Source: an uncultured Candidatus Saccharibacteria bacterium
GTDB taxonomy: Bacteria; Patescibacteriota; Minisyncoccia; Phycocordibacterales; UBA2135
Reading direction: 5' to 3'
NCBI GenBank assembly: GCA_964573545.1
Contig: CAZNJQ010000002.1
Span: 1 to 52,543, forward strand
Length of the DNA stretch: 52,543 nucleotides
The notes below the pieces were generated by a model. It made no database searches, was not told the DNA's origin, and was given only the letters and a program-made list of their open reading frames with translations. This document shows, in pieces, positions 1,412 to 51,890 of this stretch (position 1 is its first letter; each line of letters opens with the position of its first letter). The position numbers were made by a program, and so were the translations under genes.

Positions 1412-1536
1412 ATTTCTTTTCATACCCCCCCCTGAAGAGGGTTTGTTTATCTTCATATAAGCTCTGTGGATAAGGAGCGGGCTTATTTATGTTATGATTA
1501 TAACGAAGCCATTATCAATATCTAACGTCGTAGAGT

Positions 1537-13347: not shown

Positions 13348-13351
13348 ACCC

Positions 13352-14113
13352 ATGACATACCTCGACGAATTGCGCGAGTGGGGACGGCATTTTTCGCACT
13401 GGGCGATTCTGATTCTTTTTTTCTCCCTATTCTTTTTCTCTTTTGGCCTCAAACAGTTCGCCATATTTGGCCAGGTAATCCTCGTGCCGGTTCTTGCCCC
13501 GCAGTCATTCTCGGTTTTGTTTTTCGAGATAGTAAAGAATGACCTGGTGCCCGAAGGAGTTTCATTTATTGTTACCAATCCCGCAAGCGCATTCACCTCG
13601 CAGGCTCTTATATCGGTACTTTTGGCGCTGGTGTTCTCTGTTCCATACATCCTCTATACGCTCATTCGTTATCTGTCTCCCGCATTGTTTGTTCGGGAGC
13701 AGAAAGCGATTATCGGGGTCATCGTACCGTCCGTGCTCTTATTCGTCTCGGGTATGCTCTTTGCGTATTTTTTCATCATTCCGCCGACATTTTCCTTCCT
13801 CTATGATTTTGCTCCGCGGATAGGGGCGATTCCGCTCTTTTCCGTCAACGAATTTATTTCACTCGTGTTCTCTTTAGTCGTCATCACGGGATTTTCTTTC
13901 CTGCTTCCCGTATGCATGTTCCTTATGAGTCGCCTGGGGCTTATTCCGGGGATAGTGTGGAGGAAAAATTGGCGCATAGCATGCGTTGCGTTCCTTATCT
14001 TTGCGGCGCTTATCACGCCTGACGGCAGTGGCATAACAATGGCGTTTCTCTCGTTGCCGTTATGTGCTCTCTATGGACTCGGAGTATTCTTGAGCGGACG
14101 CCTCAGTAATTAG
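13352..14113 (+). CDS. tatC: Twin-arginine translocase subunit TatC
   Basis: 253 aa with about 6 hydrophobic helices and a TatC-like pattern (...F.F.PF...PG.W...). The ATG is 5 nt after the gatB stop. Confidence 0.75.
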   Translation: MTYLDELREWGRHFSHWAILILFFSLFFFSFGLKQFAIFGQVILVPVLAPQSFSVLFFEIVKNDLVPEGVSFIVTNPASAFTSQALISVLLALVFSVPYILYTLIRYLSPALFVREQKAIIGVIVPSVLLFVSGMLFAYFFIIPPTFSFLYDFAPRIGAIPLFSVNEFISLVFSLVVITGFSFLLPVCMFLMSRLGLIPGIVWRKNWRIACVAFLIFAALITPDGSGITMAFLSLPLCALYGLGVFLSGRLSN

Positions 14114-23925: not shown

Positions 23926-24696
23926 ATGGATAAATCTATGCCGCTTCCAAAACAAAAAGATGGTCACCTACACCCCCTCACGCACATCATTAGAGACAGT
24001 GTGGAAATTTTTAGCAGGATTGGTTTCGAAGTGGTTTTGGGACCCGAGGTAGAGACAGAATACTATAATTTTGACGCCTTAAATATTCCCGCTAATCATC
24101 CTGCCCGCGATCTATGGGATACGTTCTGGCTTAAGCCCGGGAAAGAAGGACTAGAGACCAGGGAATTGCTCCGGACACATACGAGCCCGGTACAGATACG
24201 ATATATGGAAGCCCATACGCCGCCGCTCCGGATCATTGTCCCCGGAAAAGTATTCCGGTATGAAGCGACAGATGCGACACATGAGGCGCAATTTTTCCAA
24301 CTCGAAGGTCTTTTGGTCGAGAAAAATGCCTCTCTTGCAATGCTCAAAGGCACCCTGGAAGTCTTCTTCAGAGAATTTTTCGGGAAAAAGATAGGTATTC
24401 GGTTTCGCCCGAGTTATTTTCCGTTCGTCGAACCGGGTGTCGAAGTCGATATGTCGTGCTTCAAATGCGGAGGAGGCGGTTCCGGATGCGCTCTGTGTAA
24501 AGAGACCGGATGGATCGAGATCATGGGCGCAGGCATGGTCCATCCGAGGGTCCTCCAGAATGCCGGCATCCATAGTGAAAAATGGCGCGGATTTGCGTTC
24601 GGGGTCGGCATTGATCGGCTTGCAATGCTCAAGTATGGGATTCCGGATGTCCGGCTCTTGTATTCGGGGGATTTGCGAGTTATCAATCAATTCTAG
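23926..24696 (+). CDS. pheS: Phenylalanine--tRNA ligase alpha subunit, short form (256 aa)
   Basis: HPLTHIIRDSVEIFSRIGF...NFDALNIPANHPARD...FRPSYFPFVEPG. The track start at 23884 lies inside the terminator. Confidence 0.9.
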   Translation: MDKSMPLPKQKDGHLHPLTHIIRDSVEIFSRIGFEVVLGPEVETEYYNFDALNIPANHPARDLWDTFWLKPGKEGLETRELLRTHTSPVQIRYMEAHTPPLRIIVPGKVFRYEATDATHEAQFFQLEGLLVEKNASLAMLKGTLEVFFREFFGKKIGIRFRPSYFPFVEPGVEVDMSCFKCGGGGSGCALCKETGWIEIMGAGMVHPRVLQNAGIHSEKWRGFAFGVGIDRLAMLKYGIPDVRLLYSGDLRVINQF

Positions 24697-24727
24697 GCCG
24701 GCTCGTTTTGTATTACAGGATCGTGCT

Positions 24728-27061
24728 ATGAAAATTTCTTATAATTGGCTTCAAGATTATTTCTCGGCATCTCTGCCGGCACCGGAAAAACTCGCGGAGC
24801 TTCTTACATTCCATGCGTATGAAGTGGAATCCCTCGAGAAGGTCGGCGACGACACAGTTTTTACCATTGACGTACTACCGAACCGAGCCGGTGACTCACT
24901 TTCTCATCGGGGTGTCGCGCAGGAACTCTCCGGGTTATTGAAGAAGCCACTGCAAAAGGACCCGTTCAAGGGCATCCAGAAAGAACTGAAGAAATCAGAG
25001 CGATTATTTCTGGATATACCCGCTGATTCTCCATGCTCTCGATATAGCGGCGCTTTTATTGAAAATATCGCCGTCTCTGAATCCCCGGATTGGCTCAAAA
25101 AGAGGCTCATGTCGGTAGGGCAAAAACCAATAAATGTAATCGTCGATATTGCGAACTATGTCATGTTCGATATCGGCCAGCCGCTCCATGCATTTGACGC
25201 CGGTGCTCTAGCACAGAGACGCGGTATGTATACCATACGTGTTCGGAATGCACGAGGCGGAGAGCGCATAGAGACACTAGATGGAACGCTTCAGGCACTT
25301 TCGCCGGAAAATCTCCTTATCGTCGATGGAGGAAATGACGCTCCGCTTGGTATCGCTGGCGTGAAAGGTGGTATGAGTGCTGCAGTAAATTCCGCTACAA
25401 GAAATATTATTCTTGAAGCAGCGCACTTTGATAGCGGTGTAATCCGTAAATCGGCGCAGGGCGTCAAGCTTCGAACGGATGCATCAGTACGGTTTGAGAA
25501 TGATCCTCCACCGGAACTTACGCGGTATGCGCTTGAGCAAGCGACGTCGTTAATTCAGGGGATCGCGGGCGGTAGAGCGGAAGGTTTTATCGACTTCTAC
25601 CCGGCGCCTGATGCGCCGTATCGTACCGGAGTTTCTCTCTCCGAGATCAACGCAGTGCTTGGCGTACGCATATCTTCCGGAGAGATTGAAAAGATTTTCG
25701 AGAGGCTTGCATTCGGGTATTCGAAAGTGAAGCCCCTCCAAGAGATACTAAAGACGGCTGAGGCGCTTATCGGCGTCCCGTATAAATACGGTGCGCGCAT
25801 ACGGAAAGACGCACCACGCGCCTTCGATTGCTCGTCATTTTTAAGCTACATATTTACCCAAGGAGGAATTCGTATCCCGCGCATGGCTATTGATCAATAT
25901 TTTTATGGCGACGAGATCAAAAAAAAGAACGATTTTAGGCCCGGAGATGTTGTATTTTCAGTCGATGCAAAGGATTCTCATATCCGCCATGAATCAAAAG
26001 ATTTTCTCAGGGGTGGAAAAGTTCCAGAAGGAGTAAGTCACTGCGGGTTATACATCGGCAAAGGAGACGTTATACACGCTTCTGGCGCTACGGGTGCGGT
26101 TGTGCGGGAATCTTTAGAGGAGAGCAGGGGTTTTACTCACATTGTCGGATTACGGAGAATGTTCCAAAGCAAAGAGCCGAGGTTTGTCGTCACAGTCCCT
26201 TTTTGGCGGCGGGATATACGCATAAAAGAAGATTTGATAGAAGAAATAGGTCGTTTGTACGGATATAGAAGTGTCGCCCTGAAGGCGCCGAATCGCCCCC
26301 GGAAGAAGCCGATTCCCAACACGATGGCTGTATACCGGGAACTCGTGAGCACACTGCTTTGCAGCGCAGGATTTTCTGAGGTGTATACATATGTATTTCG
26401 TGAAAAAGGCGCCCGAGAGCTCTTAAATCCGCTTGCATCTGATAAAAAATTCCTGAGGAAAAACCTCCGTGACGGGCTTTTGCAGAGCCTCTCGCTAAAC
26501 TCGAAGAATAAGGCGTTACTCGGGGTATCATCCGTGAAAATTTTTGAGATAGGGAACGTTTTTGAGGCAGGACGCGAACATATCTCATTGGGTGTCGCCG
26601 CCCAAGATGCGCGAGTACTTCACGATATCGTCATTCCGGGTTTAAAAAAGATCAATCCGCACGCTTCTCTTCCGGTAGACGGGAATATCCTTGAACTTGA
26701 TTTTGATGCCTTTATCAAAAATCTTCCGGCAGTCCGTGTTCGTTCCGTACACACAGAAGATACGCTTAGAATCAAATATGTTCCGTTTTCCGAATACCCA
26801 TTTGCTCTGCGCGATATCGCAGTGTGGGTTCCGGGAAAAATTAAATCTCATGATGTGCAGGCCGTACTGGAAAAACAGAGCGGACCCTTCCTCATCCGTG
26901 CCGACATATTCGATGAATATAGGAAAGATGGCAACGTGTCGTATGCGTTTCGCCTTGTTTTCCAATCACATGAAAAAACACTTTCTGATGATGAGGTTGG
27001 CGCCATAATGCAAACTCTCACGAATTTTTTGAACTCGAAGCCAGGATGGCACGTGAGGTAG
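24728..27061 (+). CDS. pheT: Phenylalanine--tRNA ligase beta subunit (777 aa) with an inserted NlpC/P60 domain
   Basis: MKISYNWLQDYF..., B3/4 (PLHAFD, GIAGVKGG), B5 (VTVPFWRRDIRIKEDLIEEIGRLYGY) and a C-terminal FDX-ACB-like region. The track ORF start at 24437 overlaps pheS. Confidence 0.9.
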   Translation: MKISYNWLQDYFSASLPAPEKLAELLTFHAYEVESLEKVGDDTVFTIDVLPNRAGDSLSHRGVAQELSGLLKKPLQKDPFKGIQKELKKSERLFLDIPADSPCSRYSGAFIENIAVSESPDWLKKRLMSVGQKPINVIVDIANYVMFDIGQPLHAFDAGALAQRRGMYTIRVRNARGGERIETLDGTLQALSPENLLIVDGGNDAPLGIAGVKGGMSAAVNSATRNIILEAAHFDSGVIRKSAQGVKLRTDASVRFENDPPPELTRYALEQATSLIQGIAGGRAEGFIDFYPAPDAPYRTGVSLSEINAVLGVRISSGEIEKIFERLAFGYSKVKPLQEILKTAEALIGVPYKYGARIRKDAPRAFDCSSFLSYIFTQGGIRIPRMAIDQYFYGDEIKKKNDFRPGDVVFSVDAKDSHIRHESKDFLRGGKVPEGVSHCGLYIGKGDVIHASGATGAVVRESLEESRGFTHIVGLRRMFQSKEPRFVVTVPFWRRDIRIKEDLIEEIGRLYGYRSVALKAPNRPRKKPIPNTMAVYRELVSTLLCSAGFSEVYTYVFREKGARELLNPLASDKKFLRKNLRDGLLQSLSLNSKNKALLGVSSVKIFEIGNVFEAGREHISLGVAAQDARVLHDIVIPGLKKINPHASLPVDGNILELDFDAFIKNLPAVRVRSVHTEDTLRIKYVPFSEYPFALRDIAVWVPGKIKSHDVQAVLEKQSGPFLIRADIFDEYRKDGNVSYAFRLVFQSHEKTLSDDEVGAIMQTLTNFLNSKPGWHVR
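25730..26179 (+). other. NlpC/P60 papain-like domain inserted in the PheT B5 domain (~150 aa)
   Basis: GVPYKYG...AFDCSSF (Cys codon 25829-25831), ...RPGDVVF..., SHCGLYIG (His codon 26039-26041), DVIHAS (His codon 26075-26077). Confidence 0.75.
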
Positions 27062-41072: not shown

Positions 41073-41501
41073 TTAGAAAATTATACGAGCTGTAATTAAA
41101 TTCATCTTAACACGAGAACCCCTTATTTATTCTCGACGCAATGCCGTGGATTCTGTGAAATCTGTGGATTGGAGAATTTCAACAGCATGAACCTGAACAT
41201 GATTTAGTGTGTGATCTTAACCCATACGGACATAAAACATGAACAGTGACCCATAGAGGATAGTAATTTACTGTCTCGCATACCCGAGATAGTAAATACT
41301 AGTCAGTTGCATTGAGCCTTCGATCGTCTCTCAGCCCTTAGTAACGTCTCGTCTTGCCGATAATCTCAAGTTGACTGTCTATCAAGTGGACTTTGATAAA
41401 AGTATACATCACATTTTACATCATAGCGAGCGTGAATCTACATCGTGTAGCCGAGATATAGACCCGCACTAAAGATGCTTAATGCTCTGGAGGCTTGCTT
41501 A

Positions 41502-41535
41502 CCTGCCACCATGCCTGCGCATGCAGGAGGGCAGG
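41502..41535 (-). repeat. Inverted copy of the GC-rich palindromic repeat
   Basis: CCTGCCACCATGCCTGCGCATGCAGGAGGGCAGG is the reverse complement of the 39617-39651 family core. Confidence 0.8.
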
Positions 41536-41803
41536 CACCACAAAGTATTTTTATAGCCAAAATAGTGTAGAAATCCCTATAAAATAGGTCGGCTAAGCGA
41601 GAAAATCAAAGAACAGTCAAAATATAGTGGCTTATCCAAGGACGCAAAAGGATTGATCATTGGAAACTTATAAAAAATCATATTGTTGAGTCTTAAAAAT
41701 CAAAAATAGTTCACTGGTGCCGCACTCAGCACAGGTTTCATTGGACATAAAACGCACCATGCGTGTTCGTACCACAGTTGCCGCGCATCGGCTGACGGAC
41801 AAC

Positions 41804-41812
41804 TTATCCACA
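41804..41812 (+). promoter_or_regulatory. Perfect DnaA-box consensus TTATCCACA
   Basis: Exact 9-mer. Related sites are TTATCCAAG at 41632, TGTGGATTG at 41163 and TGTGGATTT at 41056. Confidence 0.35.
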
Positions 41813-41895
41813 TTTTGTCTAGTTCGGATAGCCGAAATGTCTTACAATTAAAGGGTAACGAGAACTCTTTAAAACTGTCATCTCGGTTCTTGGCA

Positions 41896-44800
41896 ATGGA
41901 ATCAGAATTTTTTTTGGAAGGAAAAAAATATATCTCGTCAAAACAAGCTGGCGAGTTGTTCGGCTACACGAGTGACTACATTGGCCAGCTTTGTCGTGCT
42001 AAAAAACTGGATGGGAAAATACTCGGCAAGACGTGGTTCATAACCGAGGAATCGCTATTGGCGCACCAGAACAAGAAGAACGAGAAACAGAGTAAGAAAA
42101 ACAGACCTCGTCCTGCCGAGGATGCTCGCCCAGACGAAGAATCAATAAGTTACGTAGAAATGTGGGGGAGTGCCCCATCTCCGCAGCGCTCTTTAAAAGA
42201 AGAACGTTCGGGTGAAATACATATCACTCGTTCTTATCGCGCCCTAGAAGATATTGATAGTTCTTGGGAACAAGTTCTCTTCTCCGGCAGTTCAGCGGGA
42301 GAGTATGCGATACGTAAAAATATTTCCGAGAAAAAAACTGCGCTATCTCAAGCAGGCTCTGTGCAAGTGACAATCTCGCAGAACTTTTCTCAAAAAGAAA
42401 AAAATGCTCCCGCGTCACGGTATGGCATTTTGCGAAATGAATTTGAAAAACAAAATAAGCGCACCAAAGAAGACCGGCTGGTTGGAAACTTTTTACAAAC
42501 GACTACTAGATTTAGCGATTTCATCTCTCCGCGAACCGCACTCCAATTTACTGCATTCATTTTTATGCTGTCGGCGATAGGGGGCGGTGCGTTTTATGCG
42601 AACAATGTTTTTACATACGACAGAAGCTCCTCATATGCAGCCTCTGAAACTGCATCGGAAAAACTCCTGACCATGGCTGAAAACTGGAGCGATAGAATGG
42701 TGACAAAAATCTCGACTTTTGATGACAAAATTGTCGCGAGAACGGCTGGTTTCGCAGCGAAACTCGATGGTATTCTGGCACAAGAAGATGTATTCGAAAA
42801 GGAAGTCGTTTTGCTACAAGACCAAACGCCGGAAAACCAAGAATCCCAAGATTTTCAAGGGTTTTCTGTCTTCTCACGAGGTATTGCGCAATTTCTTAAC
42901 GCTTTCGGAGAAGAGCTCTCGACTATTACTCGCAGCGCAATGACTTCTATAACATCTGGAGCGCGGGAATATCTGCAGGTCATAAAAGCCACAGTTCACT
43001 ACGTGAAATACGATCCAAGTTCGCTATTCTCTAACCGTATAAGTACGCGGTACTATGTCTCATTTATCGACACAACGATCAGAGATGAAAGCGCCCGGGA
43101 AAGGCTTGCAACGTTCTCGCTACCATCGCTTATACCCGACATATCGTCTATCGCATTGCATACCGGAATAAAATATGCCGCATTTGTAACGTATCAAAGC
43201 ATACATACTACGGGAGATATTTTGAAAGCAGGCTATTCATTATTCTTCGAGACCGATGAGGATATGACCCACGTCGCGGTTATCGAGCCTAAGCAAGAAG
43301 AAAGGGAATCAATTCTCTCCGAAAAAATTTCCGCGCTTGAACAAGAAATCAAGTATCTCAAGACTCAAGGAGTTTCTGTCGTATTCTCTCCCGGCGCTCC
43401 CGCTATCGTAGAGCGGGCAATCGAGCGAGTTACCCCGGGGGTCTCCGATGCGATTCTTGACGATAAATTAAATACGCTCGAAAACAAACTTCGCCAGGAA
43501 ATTTTTAGAGTACAGGGTTCGACGAACTCAACCGTACAAAGCAACGCTCGCGCAATTGCGCTTACAAACGTCATCAATCGCTTATCGAATGTCACTATCA
43601 CGGATGCAACCGTAAGTGGCGTCTCTGGTCTTACCGATGCGGACATACCGAACGATATTGTTGCGTCAAATTACTTGCCGCTTGCGGGAGGAACGCTTAC
43701 CGGAACCCTGACGGGGACGAATGCCGTATTTACCGGCACACTGGGAGTTGGGACTACAACACCTTCAGAAGATTTTGCGGTCGCGAATCGCATCTATGTG
43801 GGTGGCACGGGCACTTCGACTATACAAAACAACTTAAGCATCTTAGGTTCTATCGCCATCGGCAATGTGTGTATCAACTGCGACTCAAGCGGCGGATTCT
43901 CGGGAGCAGGTATCTCAGCTTCCGCAACATCCACGTTCTCAGCGCCGCTTATTGCGACATATGTACCACCGAATGCCCACACCTTCCCTGCATGGTCAAT
44001 TGGCGCAAGTGGCTCAAATGTCACAAGCGCATCGCTTGTCATTAATCCAGCATCGGCATCTTCCGATACGAACCTGCTGGGTGTCGCGGTTAACGGCGCC
44101 GTCCGGTTCCTTGTTGATGCGGAGGGAGATGTGTTCGCGAACTCACTGACGTCCGTTGGCGGGGAGACACTCTCAACGACGACTATCGCAACCCTTACTG
44201 TCGAAAACAACTCGACGTTGGGTGACGCAACAACGACAGACAGGGTCTATTTTAACTCTCGTATTGGCTCGTCTCTTATCCCGACGGCAAACAATATCTT
44301 GAATATCGGGGACACGACAAATGGTCTCGCGTGGCGAACGGGAATTTTCGGAACTTCACTCGGTGTCGGCACAACGTCTCCTTCATGGCCGCTTGCGGTC
44401 GCCGGAGCCGGTTCTTTTGACGACTACGTGCGCGCATCGTATTTTAATGCCACGTCGAGCACAGCAACCTCGACATTCTCGGGCGGCTTAACCGCAAACA
44501 ATATCAAGATCGGTTCCGGCACATATCTCTTCAATGCGGCCACGTCTTCGTTCACGCAAGGCATCAATATTTCCGACGGCTGCTTCTCCGTCGACGGCGT
44601 GTGCGTCGTCGGACGCGTCACTTCAGTAACCGCAAATGCAAACAATACGCTCACGATCTCTCCCACATTTGGTGATGTGGTCGCAGGATTAAACCTTTCG
44701 AATCCAAACACATGGACAGGGCTCCAGCAATTCTCCGCAGGAGCATCGACAACACGCCTCTCTGTCATCGACACGTTCTATGTTGGAGGAACCGCGACAA

Positions 44801-45552
44801 CAACACTCCAGGGGAACACGACGGGCACATCAACCATTCAAGGTTTCTTGAACGTAATGGGAACAAACTCAACTTCGACATTCAGCGGCGGCATCCAGGC
44901 GACATATCTCAATATAACGGGAACTATCGCGACATCGACATTCGCGAACGGCATATCGTTGACGTCGGGATGTTTCCGGTTGCCTGACGGTTCGTGTGCC
45001 GGTTCCGGAGGAGGGTCTCTTCTCAACAGCGCACTCACGAAAGGATACTTCGTGGTCGGCAATGACGCCGGATTATCACAGGCGACATCTTCAATCTTTT
45101 TGTCTTCGACCGGAAATTTCGGCATCGGTACCACATCACCATGGACGCGCCTTTCTGTCACGAACACCGTTTCCTCTGCGCAGGTGTCAATCGCATATGA
45201 TGCGGCGACATACGCCACATTCCAGGTCGATTCGGTGGGAGACCTTATCGGCGACCCGCAAGGGAACGATTTCCGCTTGAATGACGACAACCTCTGGGTC
45301 TGTGCGAGCGGCGCCTGTCCTACGGGGAGCCCGGTCGGTACGGGAAATCTTATAATAGAAACTGCCATAGGTATCGCCTCATCCACGCCATGGACTGGGT
45401 ACGAACTTGCGGTTGCGGGAGATATCATCATAACGGCGACAACAACCCTTGGTAACAACTTCAAATTTGCGCCAATGGTGGGCACAACGACGGAAATGGG
45501 CCTCTACAACTCATCCGGTTCGCTTATCCTCATCTTCGACGAATGGCAGTAA
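41896..45552 (+). CDS. Giant membrane protein: N-terminal excisionase/MerR-like HTH, one TM helix, coiled coil, tail-fibre-like Gly/Thr/Ser-rich ectodomain (1218 aa)
   Basis: The HTH is YISSKQAGELFGYTSDYIGQLCRAKKLDGKILGKTWFITEESL. The TM segment is LQFTAFIFMLSAIGGGAFYA (about 42538-42613). Fibre motifs are NYLPLAGGTLTGTLTG and a recurring (L/I)G(V/I)GTT(S/T)P...L.V. Confidence 0.8.
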   Translation: MESEFFLEGKKYISSKQAGELFGYTSDYIGQLCRAKKLDGKILGKTWFITEESLLAHQNKKNEKQSKKNRPRPAEDARPDEESISYVEMWGSAPSPQRSLKEERSGEIHITRSYRALEDIDSSWEQVLFSGSSAGEYAIRKNISEKKTALSQAGSVQVTISQNFSQKEKNAPASRYGILRNEFEKQNKRTKEDRLVGNFLQTTTRFSDFISPRTALQFTAFIFMLSAIGGGAFYANNVFTYDRSSSYAASETASEKLLTMAENWSDRMVTKISTFDDKIVARTAGFAAKLDGILAQEDVFEKEVVLLQDQTPENQESQDFQGFSVFSRGIAQFLNAFGEELSTITRSAMTSITSGAREYLQVIKATVHYVKYDPSSLFSNRISTRYYVSFIDTTIRDESARERLATFSLPSLIPDISSIALHTGIKYAAFVTYQSIHTTGDILKAGYSLFFETDEDMTHVAVIEPKQEERESILSEKISALEQEIKYLKTQGVSVVFSPGAPAIVERAIERVTPGVSDAILDDKLNTLENKLRQEIFRVQGSTNSTVQSNARAIALTNVINRLSNVTITDATVSGVSGLTDADIPNDIVASNYLPLAGGTLTGTLTGTNAVFTGTLGVGTTTPSEDFAVANRIYVGGTGTSTIQNNLSILGSIAIGNVCINCDSSGGFSGAGISASATSTFSAPLIATYVPPNAHTFPAWSIGASGSNVTSASLVINPASASSDTNLLGVAVNGAVRFLVDAEGDVFANSLTSVGGETLSTTTIATLTVENNSTLGDATTTDRVYFNSRIGSSLIPTANNILNIGDTTNGLAWRTGIFGTSLGVGTTSPSWPLAVAGAGSFDDYVRASYFNATSSTATSTFSGGLTANNIKIGSGTYLFNAATSSFTQGINISDGCFSVDGVCVVGRVTSVTANANNTLTISPTFGDVVAGLNLSNPNTWTGLQQFSAGASTTRLSVIDTFYVGGTATTTLQGNTTGTSTIQGFLNVMGTNSTSTFSGGIQATYLNITGTIATSTFANGISLTSGCFRLPDGSCAGSGGGSLLNSALTKGYFVVGNDAGLSQATSSIFLSSTGNFGIGTTSPWTRLSVTNTVSSAQVSIAYDAATYATFQVDSVGDLIGDPQGNDFRLNDDNLWVCASGACPTGSPVGTGNLIIETAIGIASSTPWTGYELAVAGDIIITATTTLGNNFKFAPMVGTTTEMGLYNSSGSLILIFDEWQ

Positions 45553-45722: not shown

Positions 45723-45902
45723 ATGTTTGGACTTGGCATACCGGAAATCATCGTCATCGTTCTCGTAATTGGAATCCTCTTTTTTGGTAGCGGTAAAATC
45801 ATAGAATTTGCGCGCAATCTTGGGCGATTCTCCGGCGAATTTAAGAAGGGGAAGAAAGAAATCGAAAAGGAACTCCGCGAAGGCGAAAAAGAGACTGAAT
45901 GA
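45723..45902 (+). CDS. tatA: Twin-arginine translocase subunit TatA/E
   Basis: MFGLGIPEIIVIVLVIGILFFGSGKI..., then an amphipathic helix. The track start at 45666 lies within the repeat. Confidence 0.85.
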   Translation: MFGLGIPEIIVIVLVIGILFFGSGKIIEFARNLGRFSGEFKKGKKEIEKELREGEKETE

Positions 45903-46730: not shown

Positions 46731-47411
46731 CTACTCCAACGCTAGGTTTTTTCCGGTCGTTACGGAAAAATTCTTGAGCATTTCCGGTATTGATTTCGCG
46801 TACCCTTTTTCTCCTTCAAAAAATTCTAGTAAAAACTCGCGTTGGGTGAGTGAAGGAAAGTTTTTCTTTCCCATGTAATCCAGATGACTGCTCCACCGGT
46901 ATGTATTGAGATGCTCTGCCGCCATTTTCGGATTTTTGATGCCACGCTCCCTCCATTCCGGCAGTGTCAGATCAAGGGGGTTAAAATGGATGTAATAGGG
47001 AATCCATGAAAAGTGCCTGTCGCTGTCTATCGGCACCGATTTATATTTTCCTTGAAACAATGCGCCGCTTCTCTCATATCGTTCGTTAAAATATTTTGCA
47101 TACCCGCCATTCAATTTTTTCATAAAAAGCGGTACGCCATCATGAGCGAGCGGGGACACAAGCAGGTGATAATGATTCGGCATCAGACAAAACGCATGGA
47201 TATGTACCAACAATATCCTCTTTCTTCTCCCCACTTTTTCAAATACTGGACGTCGGACGTCCAGTATTTGAAAATTGCGGGTATTGTTAGTGTCAACATT
47301 TGCGACATCATTAAATTCAAACATATCGTGCATAAATCGAACATGATCTTTCTCATCAAGAAAGATAGTTCTTTTATCAACACCCCGGTTAAGTATATGA
47401 AAAAGCATCAT
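46731..47411 (-). CDS. IS200/IS605-type Y1 (HUH) transposase of the REP-associated tyrosine transposase (RAYT) kind
   Basis: The HUH motif is CLMPNHYHLLV. The catalytic Tyr region is YYIHFNP, followed by YRWSSHLDY. The gene is single-copy and flanked by palindromic REPs. Confidence 0.8.
   Translation of the reverse strand: MMLFHILNRGVDKRTIFLDEKDHVRFMHDMFEFNDVANVDTNNTRNFQILDVRRPVFEKVGRRKRILLVHIHAFCLMPNHYHLLVSPLAHDGVPLFMKKLNGGYAKYFNERYERSGALFQGKYKSVPIDSDRHFSWIPYYIHFNPLDLTLPEWRERGIKNPKMAAEHLNTYRWSSHLDYMGKKNFPSLTQREFLLEFFEGEKGYAKSIPEMLKNFSVTTGKNLALE
47236..47274. repeat. REP copy 1: 39-nt palindrome inside the RAYT ORF
   Basis: TTTTCAAATACTGGACGTC-G-GACGTCCAGTATTTGAAAA. Translated in frame (- strand) as FQILDVRRPVFEK. 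Confidence 0.9.
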
Positions 47412-47635: not shown

Positions 47636-48736
47636 ATGCACCGCTTCAGAAAAAACAGGGTAGCTTGCGAACTTTTCATGTGGGGAACGAATGCTTCCGG
47701 ACATCTCGGTCTCGGGGATGTCGTAAATCGTTCATCTCCGGTTCAGGTCGGCGCTCTCAATACATGGACATTTATAGCAGGCGGCAGTAGTCATAGCTTT
47801 GGCATCAGTTCCAATGGAACACTTTGGACATGGGGAGCGAATGCTTCCGGAGAGCTCGGTCTCGGGGATGTTGTAGATCGTTCTTCCCCCGTGCAGGTTG
47901 GTTCTCTCTCCACATGGGTATCGACAACGGGAGGAAGCAGCCACTCCATGGCCATTAAATCTGACGGCACGTTGTGGGCGTGGGGAGGTAATAGTAGCGG
48001 CGAACTCGGCCTCGGGGATGCCGCGAATCGCTCGTCTCCTGTGCAAGTGGGCTCACTCACTACATGGACAGCGGTTACTGGAGGAAGCAACCACTCCATG
48101 GCCATTAAATCTGACGGCACGTTGTGGGCGTGGGGAGGTAACGCTCTTGGCCGGCTTGGACTTGGAGACGTCGTACTCCGCTCCTCTCCCGTTCAGGTTG
48201 GTGCGTTAACTACTTGGACATCTGTCGCGGCGGGTGGTGGACATACCCATGCTCTTAAATCTGATGGCACGCTCTGGGCATGGGGAGCTGGTGGGTATGG
48301 CCAGCTTGGTCTGGGTAATACAGAGCACTACTCTTCTCCTGTTCAGGTCGGCTCCCTCACTACATGGGTTTTGGTCATAGAGGGAGATTATCACTCTCAT
48401 GCCCTCAAATCAGACGGCACACTCTGGGGACAAGGATTCAACGGCCCAGGCGTGCTTGGTGTGGGGGATACTGTCCATAGATCATCTCCTGTTCAAGTTG
48501 GAGCACTCACAACATGGGTCTCACTTTCAAAAGCGCGGGGTAGACATATGGTTGCCATTAAGTCTGATGGTACTCTGTGGGCCTGGGGGACAAATACTTC
48601 TGGACAACTCGGCATCGGGGATGCTGTAAATCGTTCATCTCCGGTTCAAGTAGGGTCCCTTACTACATGGGTGTCGCTTGGAGAAGGATACTCCCACTCT
48701 GCTGCCCTCAGCCGCTCGGAGGGGATGAGACGATAG
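47636..48736 (+). CDS. RCC1-repeat (7-bladed beta-propeller) protein
   Basis: Seven ~50-aa repeats of the form G.LW.WG.N..G.LG.GD...RSSPVQVG.L..W. Confidence 0.85.
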   Translation: MHRFRKNRVACELFMWGTNASGHLGLGDVVNRSSPVQVGALNTWTFIAGGSSHSFGISSNGTLWTWGANASGELGLGDVVDRSSPVQVGSLSTWVSTTGGSSHSMAIKSDGTLWAWGGNSSGELGLGDAANRSSPVQVGSLTTWTAVTGGSNHSMAIKSDGTLWAWGGNALGRLGLGDVVLRSSPVQVGALTTWTSVAAGGGHTHALKSDGTLWAWGAGGYGQLGLGNTEHYSSPVQVGSLTTWVLVIEGDYHSHALKSDGTLWGQGFNGPGVLGVGDTVHRSSPVQVGALTTWVSLSKARGRHMVAIKSDGTLWAWGTNTSGQLGIGDAVNRSSPVQVGSLTTWVSLGEGYSHSAALSRSEGMRR

Positions 48737-48795
48737 GTTATAGGTAATAGGTTTTAGTCGGATGTCCACCAATTAAGATTATTTGAGTCGCGGCG

Positions 48796-48837
48796 CGCCA
48801 AAAGCGCGTCGCCGCGTTTGCGTTTTGGCGGTTTTTT
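48796..48837 (+). terminator. Probable terminator after the RCC1 gene
   Basis: CGCCAAAA...TTTTGGCG stem enclosing a nested GC hairpin, then GTTTTTT. Confidence 0.45.
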
Positions 48838-48855
48838 GATACAGTAAAACACATA

Positions 48856-49668
48856 ATGCCGCAAAAAACAGACAAAAAAACTCTTCATTTTATGGCGGGC
48901 CTGCCCCGGGCAGGTTCGACCATGCTTATCTCTCTCCTCTCCCAGAATCCGCGCATTCATGGCGTACCTATCTCCGGCCTCTGCGGTATATTTACCGGCA
49001 TTTATGCGAATTGGGATAAAGGGGAATTTCATATTGAAACGCCGAACCCTGAGGCAAAACGTGCCGTGCTCTCCGCAACACTGGGCGCATACCACGAAAA
49101 TGCGAAAAAACCGATTATTATAGATAAGAACCGGCAATGGACACCGCACATCCTGCTTCTTGAGGAAATCCTTGGGAGAAAAATAAAAATCATCGTTCCG
49201 GTCCGCCCGATTGTCGAAATCCTCGCGTCGTTCGAGAAAATACGGCAGACACATCCGCTTGAGCTGACCGGCGCCGATGAGGCTATCGGGGGAGGAACAA
49301 CTATCGCTGCACGGGCAGAATATTTCGCGGCCCCGAACGGCGTCTTGGGGCTTGCATACAATGCGACAAAAGATGCGGTTGTTGCAGGATTCCTCGACCG
49401 GCTTCTCTTTGTTGATTACAACAAACTCATGAACGACCCAGAAACTCAATTAAAGCGTATCTATGAATTCCTCGGCGAAGAATCCTTCAAGCACGATTTC
49501 AAAAATATCACGCGACCAGGAGAATCAAATTGGCGCGTGCATAAATTCCCCGGGCTTCATGATGTCCGGCATGTGTTTGAGAAACAAAGTCCCGACGCAA
49601 AGCGCATTCTAGGGGACGAAGTATACGCGCGATACAACAAAGAGGAGCCATGGGAAGCGTGGACATAA
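48856..49668 (+). CDS. Sulfotransferase-family protein
   Basis: N-terminal PAPS 5'-phosphosulfate-binding-like loop GLPRAGSTML. 270 aa. Confidence 0.6.
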   Translation: MPQKTDKKTLHFMAGLPRAGSTMLISLLSQNPRIHGVPISGLCGIFTGIYANWDKGEFHIETPNPEAKRAVLSATLGAYHENAKKPIIIDKNRQWTPHILLLEEILGRKIKIIVPVRPIVEILASFEKIRQTHPLELTGADEAIGGGTTIAARAEYFAAPNGVLGLAYNATKDAVVAGFLDRLLFVDYNKLMNDPETQLKRIYEFLGEESFKHDFKNITRPGESNWRVHKFPGLHDVRHVFEKQSPDAKRILGDEVYARYNKEEPWEAWT

Positions 49669-49671
49669 AGA

Positions 49672-49793
49672 GACAATTGACATGTGACAATTGACCTTTG
49701 ACTATGAACTATGAAAAAATTCCGTTTCAGAATTTCGTAAGGCATTATTAAGCGCAAAATAACAGTCACATGTCAAATGTCAAAGGTCACATG
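49672..49793. repeat. TTGAC/GTCA word-repeat arms flanking a ~60-nt spacer
   Basis: GACAATTGACATGTGACAATTGACCTTTGAC ... GTCACATGTCAAATGTCAAAGGTCACATG. The right arm runs into the start codon. Confidence 0.7.
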
Positions 49794-51890
49794 TTAGTCA
49801 CTGCGTGCGCCATATGCAAGAACGAGGAGAAAAATATTCCGCAGTGGCTTAAAAACACTGCGGATTTTGATTACCGTGTCGTTGTCGACACCGGAAGTAC
49901 AGACGGCTCCGTAAGGCTTCTTCACGATGCGGGAGTTGTTGTCGTCGAGAAAGCATTTGAACCATTCCGTTTTGATGATGCACGAAATACTGCTTTAGAA
50001 CTCGTACCCGCGAATACTAATTGGTGTATCTGGCCGGATTTTGATGAATATTATGCCGATGGATGGCGGAATGAGATTCTTCGGCTTGTCGGAGAAGACC
50101 CATCCGTAACGCGGATAACATACAGAACATTCCAGAACATGGACGGAGAGATGCCCGAAGGAGCAGAATCTGGAACGCTCATGGAGAGCAAGATACACAA
50201 ATACGGACTCTACCGGTGGGAAAAACCGGTACATGAGTATCTTTCATACGTTGGCGATGCAGAAGAAGTTGTCGCCCATGCGGACACCATCAAAAGATAC
50301 CATCTTCACGTTCCGTCCGAAAAACGGAAGAAGCTCTATTTCGAGATCGCAAAAACGGCAATCGAAAAAAATCCCGACGATGAATATACGACATGGTTTT
50401 TATTGAAGGATTACTACACTTTCGGAGACCTTGAGAAAAGCGCCGAGTATGCAAAAAAATACCTTGAACGAACAAAGGGGAATACCGATTTCAGAGCCAT
50501 CGCGCACAACATCGTGAAGGAAAATGAAACAGCACACATGCAAAAAGAACTGTCTCCGCAGGCGGTGCAGAGCTTCATCATGCATCTTTCGCGCCAGAGG
50601 GAATTGAATGCGGGCATAGAGCTTGCGCGACTCTACCTCAAAAAATTCCCGAATGATTTTCTGATAGCGAATGAGCTCGCGGGAATGCTGTATCAGAGGA
50701 AAGATTTCAAGGAGGCGCTTGCTGTCGCGGAGGTCCTTGCACGCACCGCGCCTCACGATGACGGTGTATCATTTAATCTTGCGAAGTGTTATCACATCGT
50801 CGGAAGACCGGATGATGCACGGAAACTCCTCGAACAGCTCTACAATAAAGATAAAAACAACAGGGATTATGCTCTCGATTATGCGCTCTATTTAAGCGGG
50901 GAGGGGAAATTCGACGAGGCGGAAAACATTCTCCGCGCGTTGCGCCCCGACGACAGGACGCGATTTAACCTCGGCTGGTACGAAATGCGGAAGGGAAATT
51001 TTAAAGAAGGATTTGCGCTCCGCGACTTCGGCCGCACCGAGCACTTGTGGGGAAGTGAGCACCTTGTGAAGATGCCAGCCGAAAAGCGGTATAAAAATGG
51101 CGTGCCGCTTCACGGGAAAACGATGCTTCTCATGGGTGAAGGCGGAATGGGTGACGAGATGATTTTCGCGCGTTTCGCGCATATTCCCAAAGAACGGGGA
51201 GCGAAAAAGGTCATCGTGGGGTGCCTGCCGCAGCTTGTCTCCATATTCAAGCGTTCGCTCAAGGGTGTCGATGAAGTACTACCGCTCTCGGAAGCAAAGG
51301 AGCGCGCGTATGATTTTTATATTCCCATGATGAATGCGCCAAGCCTGCTTTCGCTTGAAAATCCCGTTGTTGATTTCCCGTATCTTTCTTCCGATACAGA
51401 ACGACACGCGCGATGGAAAGAAACGCTCGACTGCATAGCGGACGGGAAGCCGAAGATAGGAATACGGTGGGCGGGGAACCCGCAATTTGAACATGAGCAG
51501 TTTCGCACCGTAGAACCAAAGCACTTCATGGAGCTTTCTCGGTACGGCCAGCTTTTCTCGCTCCAGAGGGACTGGGGAGCGGATTGGCTTCCACATAATC
51601 ACGGGGTATATGATTTACAACATGACCTTACGGATTGGGACGAGACTCTGGCGGCGATTGCGAATCTCGACATGGTCGTATCAAGTTGTACGAGCATTGT
51701 GCATGCGGCGGGAGCGCTGGGAATCCCCGTGTGCGTCATTGTGCCTATCGCGTCATACTTCCCATGGGCGGTTCCCGGGAATAAAAGCGATTGGTATCCG
51801 TCTGTAACTGTTTTCAGACAAGAGAAACCGCGAAGCTGGGAGGAACCATTTCAAAAACTGCATGATTTTTTGAAAGGTTATAAATTTTAG
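49791..51890 (+). CDS. Three-part glycosyltransferase: GT2-like N-domain, TPR repeats, GT9 (heptosyltransferase-like) C-domain
   Basis: ACAICKNEEKNIPQWL...VVVDTGSTDGS is GT2-like. The middle is TPR-like. The C-terminal part, G..MLLMGEGGMGDEMIF...RWAGNP..., is GT9-like. The start could also be ATG 49770. Confidence 0.7.
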   Translation: MLVTACAICKNEEKNIPQWLKNTADFDYRVVVDTGSTDGSVRLLHDAGVVVVEKAFEPFRFDDARNTALELVPANTNWCIWPDFDEYYADGWRNEILRLVGEDPSVTRITYRTFQNMDGEMPEGAESGTLMESKIHKYGLYRWEKPVHEYLSYVGDAEEVVAHADTIKRYHLHVPSEKRKKLYFEIAKTAIEKNPDDEYTTWFLLKDYYTFGDLEKSAEYAKKYLERTKGNTDFRAIAHNIVKENETAHMQKELSPQAVQSFIMHLSRQRELNAGIELARLYLKKFPNDFLIANELAGMLYQRKDFKEALAVAEVLARTAPHDDGVSFNLAKCYHIVGRPDDARKLLEQLYNKDKNNRDYALDYALYLSGEGKFDEAENILRALRPDDRTRFNLGWYEMRKGNFKEGFALRDFGRTEHLWGSEHLVKMPAEKRYKNGVPLHGKTMLLMGEGGMGDEMIFARFAHIPKERGAKKVIVGCLPQLVSIFKRSLKGVDEVLPLSEAKERAYDFYIPMMNAPSLLSLENPVVDFPYLSSDTERHARWKETLDCIADGKPKIGIRWAGNPQFEHEQFRTVEPKHFMELSRYGQLFSLQRDWGADWLPHNHGVYDLQHDLTDWDETLAAIANLDMVVSSCTSIVHAAGALGIPVCVIVPIASYFPWAVPGNKSDWYPSVTVFRQEKPRSWEEPFQKLHDFLKGYKF

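What the first reader, a model, noticed from the sequence alone, without database searches (positions are those of the whole stretch)
41896..45552. One polypeptide joins a cytoplasmic excisionase-type HTH, a single TM helix and a ~980-aa phage-tail-fibre-like ectodomain
The N-terminus (KKYISSKQAGELFGYTSDYIGQLCRAKKLDGKILGKTWFITEESL) matches the MerR/excisionase HTH_17 pattern. About 150 residues later comes a single hydrophobic helix (LQFTAFIFMLSAIGGGAFYA). After that come a coiled-coil segment (EKISALEQEIKYLK) and a long Gly/Thr/Ser/Asn-rich region. That region has the tail-fibre hallmark NYLPLAGGTLTGTLTG and at least five recurrences of (L/I)G(V/I)GTT(S/T)P.w.L.V. The predicted topology puts the DNA-binding domain inside and the fibre outside. 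This is the logic of ToxR/CadC-type membrane-tethered one-component regulators, but with an adhesin or fibre as the sensor. For a putative episymbiont this could couple host-surface contact directly to transcription, or the HTH may have been co-opted as a cytoplasmic anchor. The gene heads an accessory surface/glycosylation region and is preceded by the long non-coding gap.
Basis: partly seen in the sequence, partly recalled or inferred. Interest (0 to 1): 0.65.

Follow-up and report, generated by a model that had tools for sequence, protein, structure and literature searches.

The report
Membrane-tethered DNA-binding surface fibre, CPR family
This gene encodes a cell-surface protein that carries a DNA-binding domain on its inner end; it belongs to a very large, unnamed family in the tiny Patescibacteria, whose genes all come with the same short DNA palindrome, so the family may regulate itself from the membrane.

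Summary
ATG 41896 to stop 45552 is one 1218-aa ORF. It has an N-terminal MerR/excisionase-type winged helix (aa ~4-68), a ~150-aa charged linker, one TM helix (aa 216-235, N-in) and a 983-aa ectodomain.

Pfam HTH_17 is sub-threshold for this protein (14 bits). The fold is still confident (pLDDT 93-95) and matches TraN, BldC, Xis and RacA. Relatives pass Pfam.

The architecture is not a one-off. A profile of the HTH finds 6229 50%-identity clusters, all "hypothetical", and every locus sampled is Patescibacteria. The layout is almost always HTH (one or two copies), linker, one TM, then an ectodomain of 26 to more than 1890 aa.

New here: family genes carry a conserved promoter. It has a TTATCC(A/C)CA box, then the palindrome ATCTCG-N6-CGAGAT, then TATAAT. 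The same palindrome is written into the HTH-coding codons with rare codons (Ser TCG 74% vs 12%; Arg CGA 83% vs 17%). The window's 823-bp upstream gap holds the box and five palindrome-like sites.

Best reading: a membrane-tethered, probably autoregulatory DNA binder fused to a variable surface module. "Phage-tail-fibre-like" is unproven for this protein. ToxR-like contact sensing is possible but untested.

The parts
41073..41895 (.). 823-bp non-coding region between dnaB (minus strand) and the gene. It is the regulatory region holding the box, the palindrome-like sites and the -10-like element.
   Evidence: No ORF of 50 aa or more, no Rfam or tRNA hit. Five ATCTCG-N6-CGAGAT-like sites (up to 3 mismatches) against 0.24 expected in shuffles, maximum 3. 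The syntenic orthologue L002 has a ~690-bp gap with the same short motifs but no extended alignment.
41804..41812 (+). TTATCCACA box (DnaA-box-like), 92 nt upstream of the ATG.
   Evidence: Exact match. A plus-strand TATCC(A/C)CA sits 45-110 nt upstream of the start codon in 52 of 82 family loci, against a background of 0.17 per kb.
41821..41838 (.). Palindrome-like site AGTTCGGATAGCCGAAAT (core TTCGG-ATAG-CCGAA) between the box and the -10-like element.
   Evidence: It occupies the same position as ATCTCG-N6-CGAGAT in relatives, where the palindrome often ends 2 nt before TATAAT.
41843..41848 (+). TACAAT, the putative -10 element. It implies a leader of about 40-45 nt.
   Evidence: Read from the sequence by analogy with the box / ~31 nt / TATAAT layout in relatives. 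The consensus promoter scanner did not call it.
41273..41290 (.). Best upstream palindrome, GTCTCGCATACCCGAGAT (1 mismatch to ATCTCG-N6-CGAGAT).
   Evidence: (I3, D1).
41346..41363 (.). Palindrome-like site GTCTCGTCTTGCCGATAA (3 mismatches). Its left part is identical to the promoter sites of L006 and L035.
41440..41457 (.). Palindrome-like site ACATCGTGTAGCCGAGAT (2 mismatches).
41586..41603 (.). Palindrome-like site AGGTCGGCTAAGCGAGAA (3 mismatches).
41896..45552 (+). Coding sequence, 1218 aa plus stop.
   Evidence: Homologues P0001-P0004 and L002.
41896..42099 (+). N-terminal winged helix-turn-helix of MerR/excisionase (HTH_17) type, aa 1-68. Layout: beta-beta, helix 15-22, recognition helix 26-34 (SDYIGQLCR), wing 40-50, helix 51-68.
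   Evidence: AF2 pLDDT 93-95 over aa 10-60. Foldseek top hits TraN, BldC, Xis, RacA and RdfS. PHROG excisionase E=6.6e-4. PDB profile hit AM32, E=0.01. hhalign to MerR-type neighbours gives 85% probability.
41932..41949 (.). In-gene copy of the palindrome position, ATCTCGTCAAAACAAGCT (codons I13-A18). The left half-site with the rare Ser codon TCG is kept. The right half is broken because residue 17 is Gln here, not Arg.
   Evidence: Family codon bias.
42100..42540 (+). Charged, low-complexity cytoplasmic linker, aa 69-215.
   Evidence: Composition. pLDDT falls to 59-77 after aa 60. Not conserved with P0001 beyond aa ~130.
42541..42600 (+). Single transmembrane helix, aa 216-235, N-in/C-out.
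   Evidence: Only hydrophobic peak. Across 230 relatives, K+R in the 15 flanking residues averages 3.43 on the N side and 1.30 on the C side, with N>C in 192.
42601..43590 (+). Membrane-proximal ectodomain, aa 236-565, probably helical stalk, including the heptad-like EKISALEQEIKYLK.
   Evidence: Helices appear only in a low-confidence model. aa 425-596 are 35-38% identical to P0001 and L002.
43591..45549 (+). Distal ectodomain rich in G/T/S/N and beta strand, aa 566-1218. It is a mosaic of modules shared with other family ectodomains and contains NYLPLAGGTLTG and four (L/I/F)G(V/I)(G/A)(T/S)(T/S)(S/T)P motifs.
   Evidence: Module aa 688-822 is 43% identical to P0051. Module aa 981-1093 is shared with about 12 loci. 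No Pfam, PHROG, PDB or phage match.

Best explanation
The gene encodes a bitopic (N-in/C-out) surface protein of a very large Patescibacteria-specific family.

Shown:
- The family's constant part is one or two cytoplasmic MerR/excisionase-type winged helices, a flexible linker and one TM helix. It is joined to an ectodomain that changes freely between relatives. Here the ectodomain is a 983-aa stalk plus a beta-rich, probably fibrous module.
- The genes share a promoter layout: a TTATCC(A/C)CA box, the 18-bp palindrome ATCTCG-N6-CGAGAT, then the -10 element.
- The same palindrome is embedded, through rare codons, in the DNA that encodes each HTH.

Inferred:
- The invariant recognition helix (D-Y-I-G-Q-L-x-R) binds this equally invariant palindrome. 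The membrane-held protein, or its two-HTH paralogue, would then sit on its own promoter and 5' coding region and feed back on its own synthesis. In a cell about 0.2-0.3 um across, the membrane can easily reach the gene.
- The ectodomain is the variable host- or environment-contact part. Whether contact changes DNA binding is unknown.
For: Architecture and start.

HTH:
- Fold is confident, and the nearest solved structures are all dsDNA binders: TraN, BldC, Xis, RacA, RdfS.
- Relatives pass Pfam HTH_17: P0051 at 35.9 bits and P0008 at 28.0 bits. Eight of 39 short relatives carry PF12728.
- hhalign to a genuine MerR-type neighbour family gives 85% probability, E=6e-6.

Family:
- 6229 clusters at E<1e-3.
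- 147 of 156 top hits have at least one TM segment after the HTH (140 have exactly one).
- 78 of 84 ORFs in 81 genomes, all Patescibacteria, have a TM, with ectodomains of 26 to more than 1890 aa.
- Positive-inside rule holds in 192 of 230.
- Recognition-helix residues Y24, D27, R34 and W47 are invariant. Y28, G30, Q31 and L32 are at least 90% conserved across sequences only 28-66% identical.

Cis-elements:
- The box has a fixed position and strand in 52 of 82 loci.
- 126 of 144 palindromes lie within -1200 to +500 of family gene starts, which is 17% of the DNA searched.
- Ser14 uses TCG in 63 of 85 cases against 11.7% genome-wide. Arg17 uses CGA in 48 of 58 against 17%.
- The same holds in a 54%-GC clade that lacks the neighbouring small MerR gene.
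- The window's gap has 5 sites against 0.24 expected. Only two weak sites (2 mismatches) occur in the other ~50 kb of the window, which fits local action.
Against: - No binding was tested. The assignment of the palindrome to this HTH rests on co-occurrence.
- In 64 of 81 low-GC loci, a divergent ~80-aa MerR-type gene sits next to the family gene. It is the textbook candidate for a palindrome lying in a promoter spacer.
- A third element, the box, has no assigned binder.
- In the window's own gene the in-coding palindrome is broken (Q17), and the promoter copy has 3 mismatches.
- Excisionase-type HTHs often bind direct repeats rather than palindromes.
- The query itself is below the Pfam threshold.
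- The ectodomain fold is unknown (pLDDT 32).
Confidence: 0.45

Rival explanations
1. ToxR/CadC-like contact sensor. Binding of a host-surface ligand by the fibre changes oligomerisation or proteolysis of the protein, and so switches transcription of a regulon through the cytoplasmic HTH.
For: The bitopic topology matches, with a DNA-binding domain inside. Conserved DNA motifs sit in promoters. The box also heads two other gene types, a small MerR-type gene and a Y1_Tnp-like gene, so a small regulon is conceivable.
Against: Ectodomains range from 26 aa to more than 1890 aa behind the same HTH, so ligand sensing cannot be the conserved role of the module. Candidate sites are concentrated at the family's own genes. 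The HTH class differs from ToxR/CadC, with no Trans_reg_C match. There is no sign of a signalling or cleavage motif.
Confidence: 0.15
2. Non-regulatory cytoplasmic anchor. The HTH either tethers the envelope protein to the nucleoid (RacA-like) or binds a conserved protein partner (as the RodZ HTH binds MreB). It would fix or position surface fibres without controlling transcription.
For: An invariant recognition helix across thousands of paralogues and orthologues implies one common ligand. The module is a constant anchor joined to variable cargo. RacA is among the structural matches. RodZ shows that an HTH-TM protein need not bind DNA (established knowledge).
Against: The palindrome lies directly against the -10 element and in the 5' coding region of the family's own genes, and is rare elsewhere. 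That is the pattern of an operator, not of chromosome-wide tether sites. All close structural relatives bind DNA.
Confidence: 0.2
3. The palindrome is the operator of a different regulator: the divergent ~80-aa MerR-type protein where present, or an unlinked factor. The HTH of this protein recognises something else, such as the asymmetric TTATCC(A/C)CA box.
For: The divergent small MerR-type gene is present in 64 of 81 loci. The palindrome occupies the promoter spacer, the classic MerR operator position. The asymmetric box at about -50 would suit a monomeric winged helix. The box is shared by three gene types.
Against: The 54%-GC clade keeps the palindromes at HTH genes and the codon bias, but has no small MerR homologue in 80 loci. 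The window and its orthologue L002 also lack the small gene nearby. The palindrome is tied to every HTH-coding unit, including second copies.
Confidence: 0.15
4. Annotation or assembly artefact. The HTH and the TM-ectodomain would be separate products, through an internal start with a signal anchor or a chimeric contig.
For: There is no clear Shine-Dalgarno sequence before ATG 41896. No transcript data cover the 5' end.
Against: The same fusion occurs in 78 of 84 ORFs from 81 genomes, and 147 of 156 database representatives have a TM segment after the HTH. The sequence is identical in several independent assemblies. The conserved promoter lies upstream of the HTH.
Confidence: 0.03

Closest known systems
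ToxR / TcpP / CadC (ToxR-like membrane-bound one-component regulators)
   Same: Bitopic N-in/C-out layout. A cytoplasmic winged-helix DNA-binding domain is joined by a linker and one TM helix to an extracytoplasmic domain, and the protein can act on promoters from the membrane.
   Different: Their HTH is of the OmpR/PhoB type (Trans_reg_C). This one is MerR/excisionase type, with no Trans_reg_C hit. Their sensor domains are about 100-250 aa and conserved. Here the ectodomain is 983 aa and hypervariable in the family. Taxonomic range is Proteobacteria versus Patescibacteria.
RodZ
   Same: N-terminal cytoplasmic HTH, single TM helix, extracytoplasmic C-terminal domain. It shows that such an HTH can serve as a protein-binding anchor (it binds MreB).
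   Different: RodZ has an Xre-type HTH and a RodZ_C domain, and neither was detected here. No palindrome or operator association is known for RodZ.
TraN of pIP501 / AM32 of pAMbeta1 (PDB 4p0z, 4p0y, 6g1t)
   Same: This is the nearest solved relative of the HTH by sequence profile (E=0.01) and by fold (probability 0.96, 31% identity). It has two tandem excisionase-like domains, like the two-HTH members of this family, and it binds dsDNA.
   Different: It is a soluble cytoplasmic protein of a conjugative type IV secretion system, with no TM helix or ectodomain.
RacA, BldC and phage Xis/RDF proteins (small MerR-like winged helices)
   Same: Same fold. RacA links DNA to a membrane-associated site, the cell pole, via DivIVA. 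BldC and Xis bind DNA cooperatively as monomers.
   Different: None is an integral membrane protein. They bind GC-rich or direct-repeat sites rather than the palindrome seen here.
Trimeric phage tail fibres / endosialidase-type fibres with a Peptidase_S74 chaperone
   Same: G/T/S/N-rich beta-rich composition. The relative P0051 shares a 135-aa module with this protein (43% identity) and ends in a Peptidase_S74 domain that passes the Pfam cut-off.
   Different: This protein has no S74 or any other recognised fibre domain, no hit in 50,697 phage records, and no usable structure model. It is chromosomal and anchored by an N-terminal TM helix.

Membership tests
Pfam HTH_17 (PF12728) / MerR-excisionase winged helix | Sequence match to the family profile above the gathering score | tested here: inconclusive
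   The query scores 14.1 bits against a cut-off of 27, E=0.06, although it covers profile positions 1-49 of 51. Relatives pass: P0051 at 35.9 bits and P0008 at 28.0 bits, and 8 of 39 short relatives carry PF12728. PHROG excisionase E=6.6e-4. hhalign to MerR-type neighbours gives 85% probability.
Pfam HTH_17 (PF12728) / MerR-excisionase winged helix | Fold: helix-turn-helix followed by a beta-hairpin wing | tested here: met
   AF2 pLDDT 93-95 for aa 10-60, with H15-22, H26-34, E40-43 and E46-50. Foldseek top matches are TraN, BldC, Pukovnik Xis, RacA and RdfS, with TM-score to target 0.6-0.75, rmsd 1.6-2.7 A and probability 0.7-0.96. E-values are weak (0.2-1.3) because the domain is only about 50 aa.
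Pfam HTH_17 (PF12728) / MerR-excisionase winged helix | Binds double-stranded DNA | not testable with these tools
   There is only indirect evidence: a conserved palindrome and box co-occur with the family's genes.
MerR-family transcription regulators | C-terminal coiled-coil dimerisation helix and effector-binding domain after the HTH | tested here: not met
   After helix 51-68 comes a charged low-complexity linker and then a TM helix. No MerR or MerR_1 Pfam hit.
ToxR-like receptors (ToxR, TcpP, CadC) | OmpR/PhoB-type winged helix (Trans_reg_C) at the N-terminus | tested here: not met
   No Trans_reg_C hit at E<=1. The fold matches the MerR/excisionase class instead.
ToxR-like receptors (ToxR, TcpP, CadC) | Bitopic N-in/C-out topology with the DNA-binding domain in the cytoplasm | tested here: met
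   A single hydrophobic segment. The positive-inside rule holds in 192 of 230 relatives. This is a prediction only.
ToxR-like receptors (ToxR, TcpP, CadC) | An extracytoplasmic signal controls transcription | not testable with these tools
   No expression data. Metatranscriptome contigs cover only 44862-45090.
RodZ | Xre-type HTH (HTH_25) and a RodZ_C periplasmic domain | tested here: not met
   No such Pfam hits.
Phage tail-fibre / endosialidase-like fibres | A recognised fibre domain (Peptidase_S74, collar, tail-fibre repeats) or similarity to annotated phage fibres | tested here: not met
   No hit in Pfam or PHROG at E<=1 for the ectodomain, none in PDB sequences, and none by tblastn against 50,697 phage records. 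Only the relative P0051 has Peptidase_S74, at 34.3 bits against a cut-off of 22.
Phage tail-fibre / endosialidase-like fibres | Trimeric beta-helix or fibre fold | tested here: inconclusive
   The AF2 monomer model built from 2 sequences has mean pLDDT 32 and is unusable.
Patescibacterial HTH-TM-variable-ectodomain family (unnamed; defined here) | N-terminal domain with YIS..A....GY..DYIGQL.R.GK......G..W(Y/F)V, then a linker and a single TM helix | tested here: met
   The query scores 98-122 bits against the family profiles. The layout is shared by 147 of 156 and 78 of 84 relatives.
Patescibacterial HTH-TM-variable-ectodomain family (unnamed; defined here) | Upstream TTATCC(A/C)CA box and ATCTCG-N6-CGAGAT palindromes, with a palindrome in the HTH codons | tested here: met
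   The box is exact at 41804-41812. There are five palindrome-like sites in the gap against 0.24 expected. The in-coding copy keeps the TCG half-site but is degenerate.

The most novel reading that the evidence does not exclude
Patescibacteria possess a lineage-specific class of envelope proteins, including giant surface fibres, that are physically coupled to their own genes. The cytoplasmic winged helix, emerging first from the ribosome, would bind a palindrome written into its own coding sequence and promoter while the rest of the chain is inserted into the membrane. Each fibre gene would then be held at the membrane, and its expression set by how many HTHs occupy the sites. If ectodomain engagement (clustering, tension or cleavage) alters this occupancy, it would be a one-protein path from host contact to the chromosome in organisms with very few regulators.
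Probability: 0.2. Interest if true: 0.85.

Novelty: new variant of a known kind. Interest (0 to 1): 0.7.

Why it matters
Patescibacteria (CPR) are a major part of bacterial diversity. They live attached to hosts, and their surface proteins and regulation are almost entirely uncharacterised.

This finding puts a name and an architecture on more than 6000 clusters of "hypothetical proteins". It shows that many of their largest surface proteins carry a DNA-binding domain on the cytoplasmic end. It also supplies a concrete 18-bp DNA site and a promoter layout that can be tested directly by EMSA, DAP-seq or reporter fusions.

If the HTH does bind the site, this would be a MerR/excisionase-type membrane-tethered regulator, a type that four full-text literature searches here did not find described. 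It would be a possible link between cell-surface contact and gene expression in ultra-small cells.

The rare-codon-encoded operator inside the domain's own coding sequence is an unusual case of overlapping protein and DNA-site constraints.

Tried and rejected
- **Ectodomain structure.** AF2 on aa 236-1218 with only P0001 as alignment gave mean pLDDT 32, so no fold search was run on it.
- **Tail-fibre likeness.** Pfam, NCBIfam, PHROGs, PDB sequences and tblastn against phage records gave nothing for the ectodomain, even for the motif peptide at E<=10.
- **Non-coding RNA in the gap.** Rfam at E<=1 gave only a chance-level hit, and there is no tRNA.
- **Gap as oriC.** I considered this because TTATCCACA is the DnaA-box consensus. 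I rejected it for five reasons. There are only one or two boxes per locus, at a fixed distance and strand from the start codon. The same box / ~31 nt / TATAAT layout heads two other gene types. The variant TTATCCCCA is common. There is no GC-skew turn at 41 kb. The window has only one exact box in the gap.
- **Extended conservation of the gap with the syntenic orthologue L002.** None beyond the short motifs.
- **Simple 8-mer GCCGADAT enrichment in the whole window.** Not significant, 15 against 9.3 expected. The longer palindrome model was needed.
- **RNA-hairpin explanation of the palindrome.** Unlikely. Promoter copies lie upstream of the -10 element, and the coding copies can form only a 4-bp stem.
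- **REP/RAYT explanation** (a Y1 transposase-like gene is nearby). Unlikely. The sites sit at fixed promoter and codon positions and are rare elsewhere.
- **Transcript evidence.** The three metatranscriptomes from a related study yielded one contig inside the 3' part of the gene and nothing at the 5' end.
- **Word-index protein searches.** These returned few or fragmentary hits. The exhaustive profile search was what revealed the family.
- **Literature.** Four full-text searches found no description of this family or of the motifs.

Full report
**What is at the coordinates**

The plus strand carries one uninterrupted ORF. Its longest form begins at TTG 41815. The ATG at 41896 gives 1218 aa ending at 45552.
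- the HTH string at aa 10-54;
- a single hydrophobic segment at aa 216-235, the only 19-residue window with Kyte-Doolittle mean of at least 1.6;
- EKISALEQEIKYLK at aa 476-489;
- NYLPLAGGTLTGTLTG at aa 592-607;
- a distal region that is 48-54% Gly/Ser/Thr/Asn.

The (L/I)G(V/I)GTT(S/T)P motif occurs four times (three strict, one relaxed), not five. The same DNA is present word-for-word in contigs from several independent groundwater metagenome runs. A chimeric assembly is therefore unlikely.

**Start codon**

The closest homologues (P0001, 1195 aa; P0002-P0004; P0005) all begin a few residues before the same F-F/I-x-(E/N)-G-K-x-Y-I-S. A promoter layout conserved across relatives lies upstream of ATG 41896 and overlaps the upstream TTG. 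The HTH is thus part of the protein.

**Is the N-terminus an HTH?**

For this protein alone the profile evidence is weak:
- Pfam HTH_17 gives E=0.06 and 14.1 bits against a cut-off of 27, although it covers the whole profile.
- A PHROG excisionase family gives E=6.6e-4.
- A four-sequence profile hits AM32/TraN in the PDB at E=0.01.

Independent evidence is stronger:
- AlphaFold2 with a 37-sequence alignment gives pLDDT 93-95 for aa 10-60. The layout is beta-beta, helix, helix, beta-hairpin wing, helix.
- Foldseek's best matches are the dsDNA-binding TraN of pIP501 (31% identity, probability 0.96), BldC, mycobacteriophage Xis, RacA and the RdfS excisionase. Target TM-scores are 0.6-0.75 and rmsd 1.6-2.7 A. 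E-values are poor only because the domain is about 50 residues.
- Relatives cross Pfam's own threshold: P0051 at 35.9 bits and P0008 at 28.0 bits, and eight short relatives carry PF12728.
- A profile-profile comparison with a genuine MerR-type neighbour family gives 85% probability.

I conclude the domain is a MerR/excisionase-type winged helix.

**Topology**

There is one TM segment. Across 230 relatives, the 15 residues on the N-terminal side carry on average 3.43 Lys+Arg against 1.30 on the C-terminal side, with N>C in 192 cases. N-in/C-out is the consistent prediction.

**A very large unannotated family**

An exhaustive profile search with the HTH found 6229 cluster representatives at E<1e-3, and 3939 at E<1e-10.
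- All 150 best hits carry two tandem copies of the domain at the N-terminus. Of the 156 top hits analysed, 147 have at least one TM segment after the HTH (140 have exactly one). The C-terminal tail is about 50 aa, about 130 aa, or more than 1000 aa.
- Wherever a source names these proteins, the name is "hypothetical protein" from Patescibacteria or Paceibacterota.
- In one genome per GTDB species, 80 loci were retrieved. All are Patescibacteria apart from obvious mislabels.
- 78 of 84 HTH ORFs have a TM helix after the HTH. The ectodomains run from 26 aa to more than 1890 aa, the longest being cut off by the locus end.
- A second set of 80 metagenome loci from a 54%-GC clade shows a recurrent tandem pair: a two-HTH, ~320-aa protein with a 50-aa tail, followed about 0.4 kb downstream by a one-HTH protein of up to ~1680 aa. 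SecA often lies upstream.

The window's gene is therefore the one-HTH, long-ectodomain form of a common design. It is the only copy in the window. L002 (UBA2135) is its syntenic orthologue, with the order SMC-like, recR, dnaB, gap, gene.

**The ectodomain**

No Pfam, NCBIfam, PHROG, PDB or phage-genome similarity was found. The structure model is unusable. What can be said:
- aa 425-596 are conserved with P0001 and L002.
- aa 688-822 are 43% identical to a module of P0051, a two-HTH relative that ends in a Peptidase_S74 fibre-chaperone domain.
- aa 981-1093 recur in about a dozen other family ectodomains and in neighbouring large ORFs.

It is a mosaic surface module. A fibre is plausible but not shown.

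**The upstream gap and conserved cis-elements**

K-mer enrichment upstream of the family's genes picked out TTATCC(A/C)CA.
- It lies on the coding strand 45-110 nt before the start codon in 52 of 82 loci, against a background of 0.17 per kb.
- About 31 nt downstream is a TATAAT, usually 8-12 nt before the ATG, which looks leaderless.
- Between them, or just upstream of the box, many loci have the palindrome ATCTCG-N6-CGAGAT.
- Of 144 such sites (up to 2 mismatches) in 813 kb, 126 lie between -1200 and +500 of a family start codon. 25 are in the promoter, 22 further upstream, 53 in codons ~13-18 of the HTH, and 26 in the second HTH copy or the next family gene.

The coding copies are spelled ATC TCG nnn nnn CGA GCn (Ile-Ser-x-x-Arg-Ala) and use rare codons:
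- Ser is TCG in 63 of 85 cases, against 11.7% of Ser codons in the same loci.
- Arg is CGA in 48 of 58, against 17%.

The 54%-GC clade shows the same bias (TCG 122 of 189, CGA 88 of 125) and the same clustering.

In the window:
- The box is exact at 41804-41812.
- A degenerate palindrome (TTCGGATAGCCGAA) follows at 41823-41836.
- TACAAT is at 41843-41848.
- The gap holds five palindrome-like sites against 0.24 expected. The best is GTCTCGCATACCCGAGAT at 41273.

**Who binds what**

The recognition helix is almost invariant in sequences that are otherwise only 28-66% identical: D27, R34 and W47 are invariant, and Y28, G30, Q31 and L32 are at least 90% conserved. The palindrome is equally invariant across clades of very different GC content. 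This parallel conservation, together with the restriction of sites to the family's own genes, is the usual comparative-genomic signature of an autoregulated DNA-binding protein.

The inference is not secure:
- In 64 of 81 low-GC loci, a divergent ~80-aa MerR-type gene sits 250-670 bp upstream. A palindrome in a promoter spacer is the classic MerR operator position.
- Against that candidate, the 54%-GC clade, the window and L002 keep the palindromes without such a neighbour.
- The box also heads the small MerR-type gene and a Y1-transposase-like gene. A homologue of the latter lies 1.2 kb downstream in the window (46731-47411). The box binder is unassigned; DnaA is possible but the common TTATCCCCA variant is atypical for DnaA.

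**Mechanism proposed**

Shown: the architecture, the family, the topology prediction, the cis-elements and the codon bias.

Inferred: the membrane-held winged helix binds the palindrome at its own promoter and 5' coding region and limits its own synthesis. The ectodomain is interchangeable contact cargo.

Alternatives are a signal-dependent ToxR-like sensor, a non-regulatory anchor (RacA- or RodZ-like), or a different binder for the palindrome. These are ranked in the Rival explanations section.

**Comparison with known systems**

The protein works like a ToxR/CadC-type membrane-bound regulator in layout. It fails that family's defining feature, an OmpR-type HTH. It shares layout but not domains with RodZ. 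Its HTH is closest to TraN/AM32, BldC, Xis and RacA, none of which is membrane-integral. It is not a canonical MerR regulator, because it has no dimerisation or effector domain.

Full-text searches found no description of the family or of the motifs.

I rate it a new variant of a known kind. Interest is 0.7, because the family is huge, unannotated, specific to a poorly understood radiation, and now directly testable.

Noticed in passing
L001-L081, 250-670 bp upstream of the HTH-TM genes (e.g. L001:2477-2716, L030:5377-5637): In 64 of 81 loci a divergently transcribed ~80-aa MerR-type protein (…YFSIKEAAEILGVSxLTLRNWDKSGKF.A.RHP.NNYRVY…) is paired with the HTH-TM gene. It has its own TTATCCACA box. 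Its leader carries two or three direct repeats of about TAATGTTTA. It is absent from the window and from the 54%-GC clade.
   Followed up: partly
window 46731-47411 (minus strand); also L006, L015, L020, L030, L032, L035, L039, L042, L049 and others: A Y1_Tnp (IS200-like / RAYT-like) ~215-226-aa gene lies within 6 kb of the family gene in 12 of 81 loci and 1.2 kb downstream in the window. In most of those loci it is headed by the same TTATCCACA / ~31 nt / TATAAT layout about 52 nt before its ATG. The window copy has no such box in the right orientation.
   Followed up: partly
L082-L161 (54%-GC metagenome clade): There is a recurrent gene order: secA, a DUF4236+TPR gene on the opposite strand, a two-HTH-TM short protein (~320 aa, 50-aa tail), then a one-HTH-TM long protein of up to ~1680 aa. 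The short and long family members are a conserved tandem pair.
   Followed up: partly
L036:849-4694: One family ectodomain is interrupted by an intein (Intein_splicing, Hint) that carries a NYN nuclease domain.
   Followed up: no
window 24437-27061: The PheRS beta-subunit ORF (B3_4, B5, FDX-ACB) shows an NlpC/P60 peptidase domain hit at aa 446-515 (E=2.6e-16). That is an unusual insertion for this enzyme.
   Followed up: no
window 1276-1473: Three DnaA-box-like 9-mers lie on the minus strand within 200 bp (ATATCCACA, TTATCCGCA, and TTATCCACA exact). They sit at the 3' end of an RNaseH-like gene and before a small Cys-rich ORF (~1538-1705) and murB.
   Followed up: no
window 13316-14113 and 45726-45902: tatC directly follows gatB, while tatA directly follows the HTH-TM gene 30 kb away. 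In 68 of 81 related loci the HTH-TM gene lies just downstream of gatB, so this genome (and L002) may have had the locus rearranged.
   Followed up: partly
P0007 and its cluster members (336 aa): In the two-HTH-TM relatives with a tail of about 110-130 aa, the C-terminal domain is named "uncharacterized protein affecting Mg2+/Co2+ transport" (ApaG-like) by IMG.
   Followed up: no
window 47636-51890: Downstream neighbours are an RCC1-repeat protein, a sulfotransferase and a GT2-TPR glycosyltransferase.
   Followed up: partly
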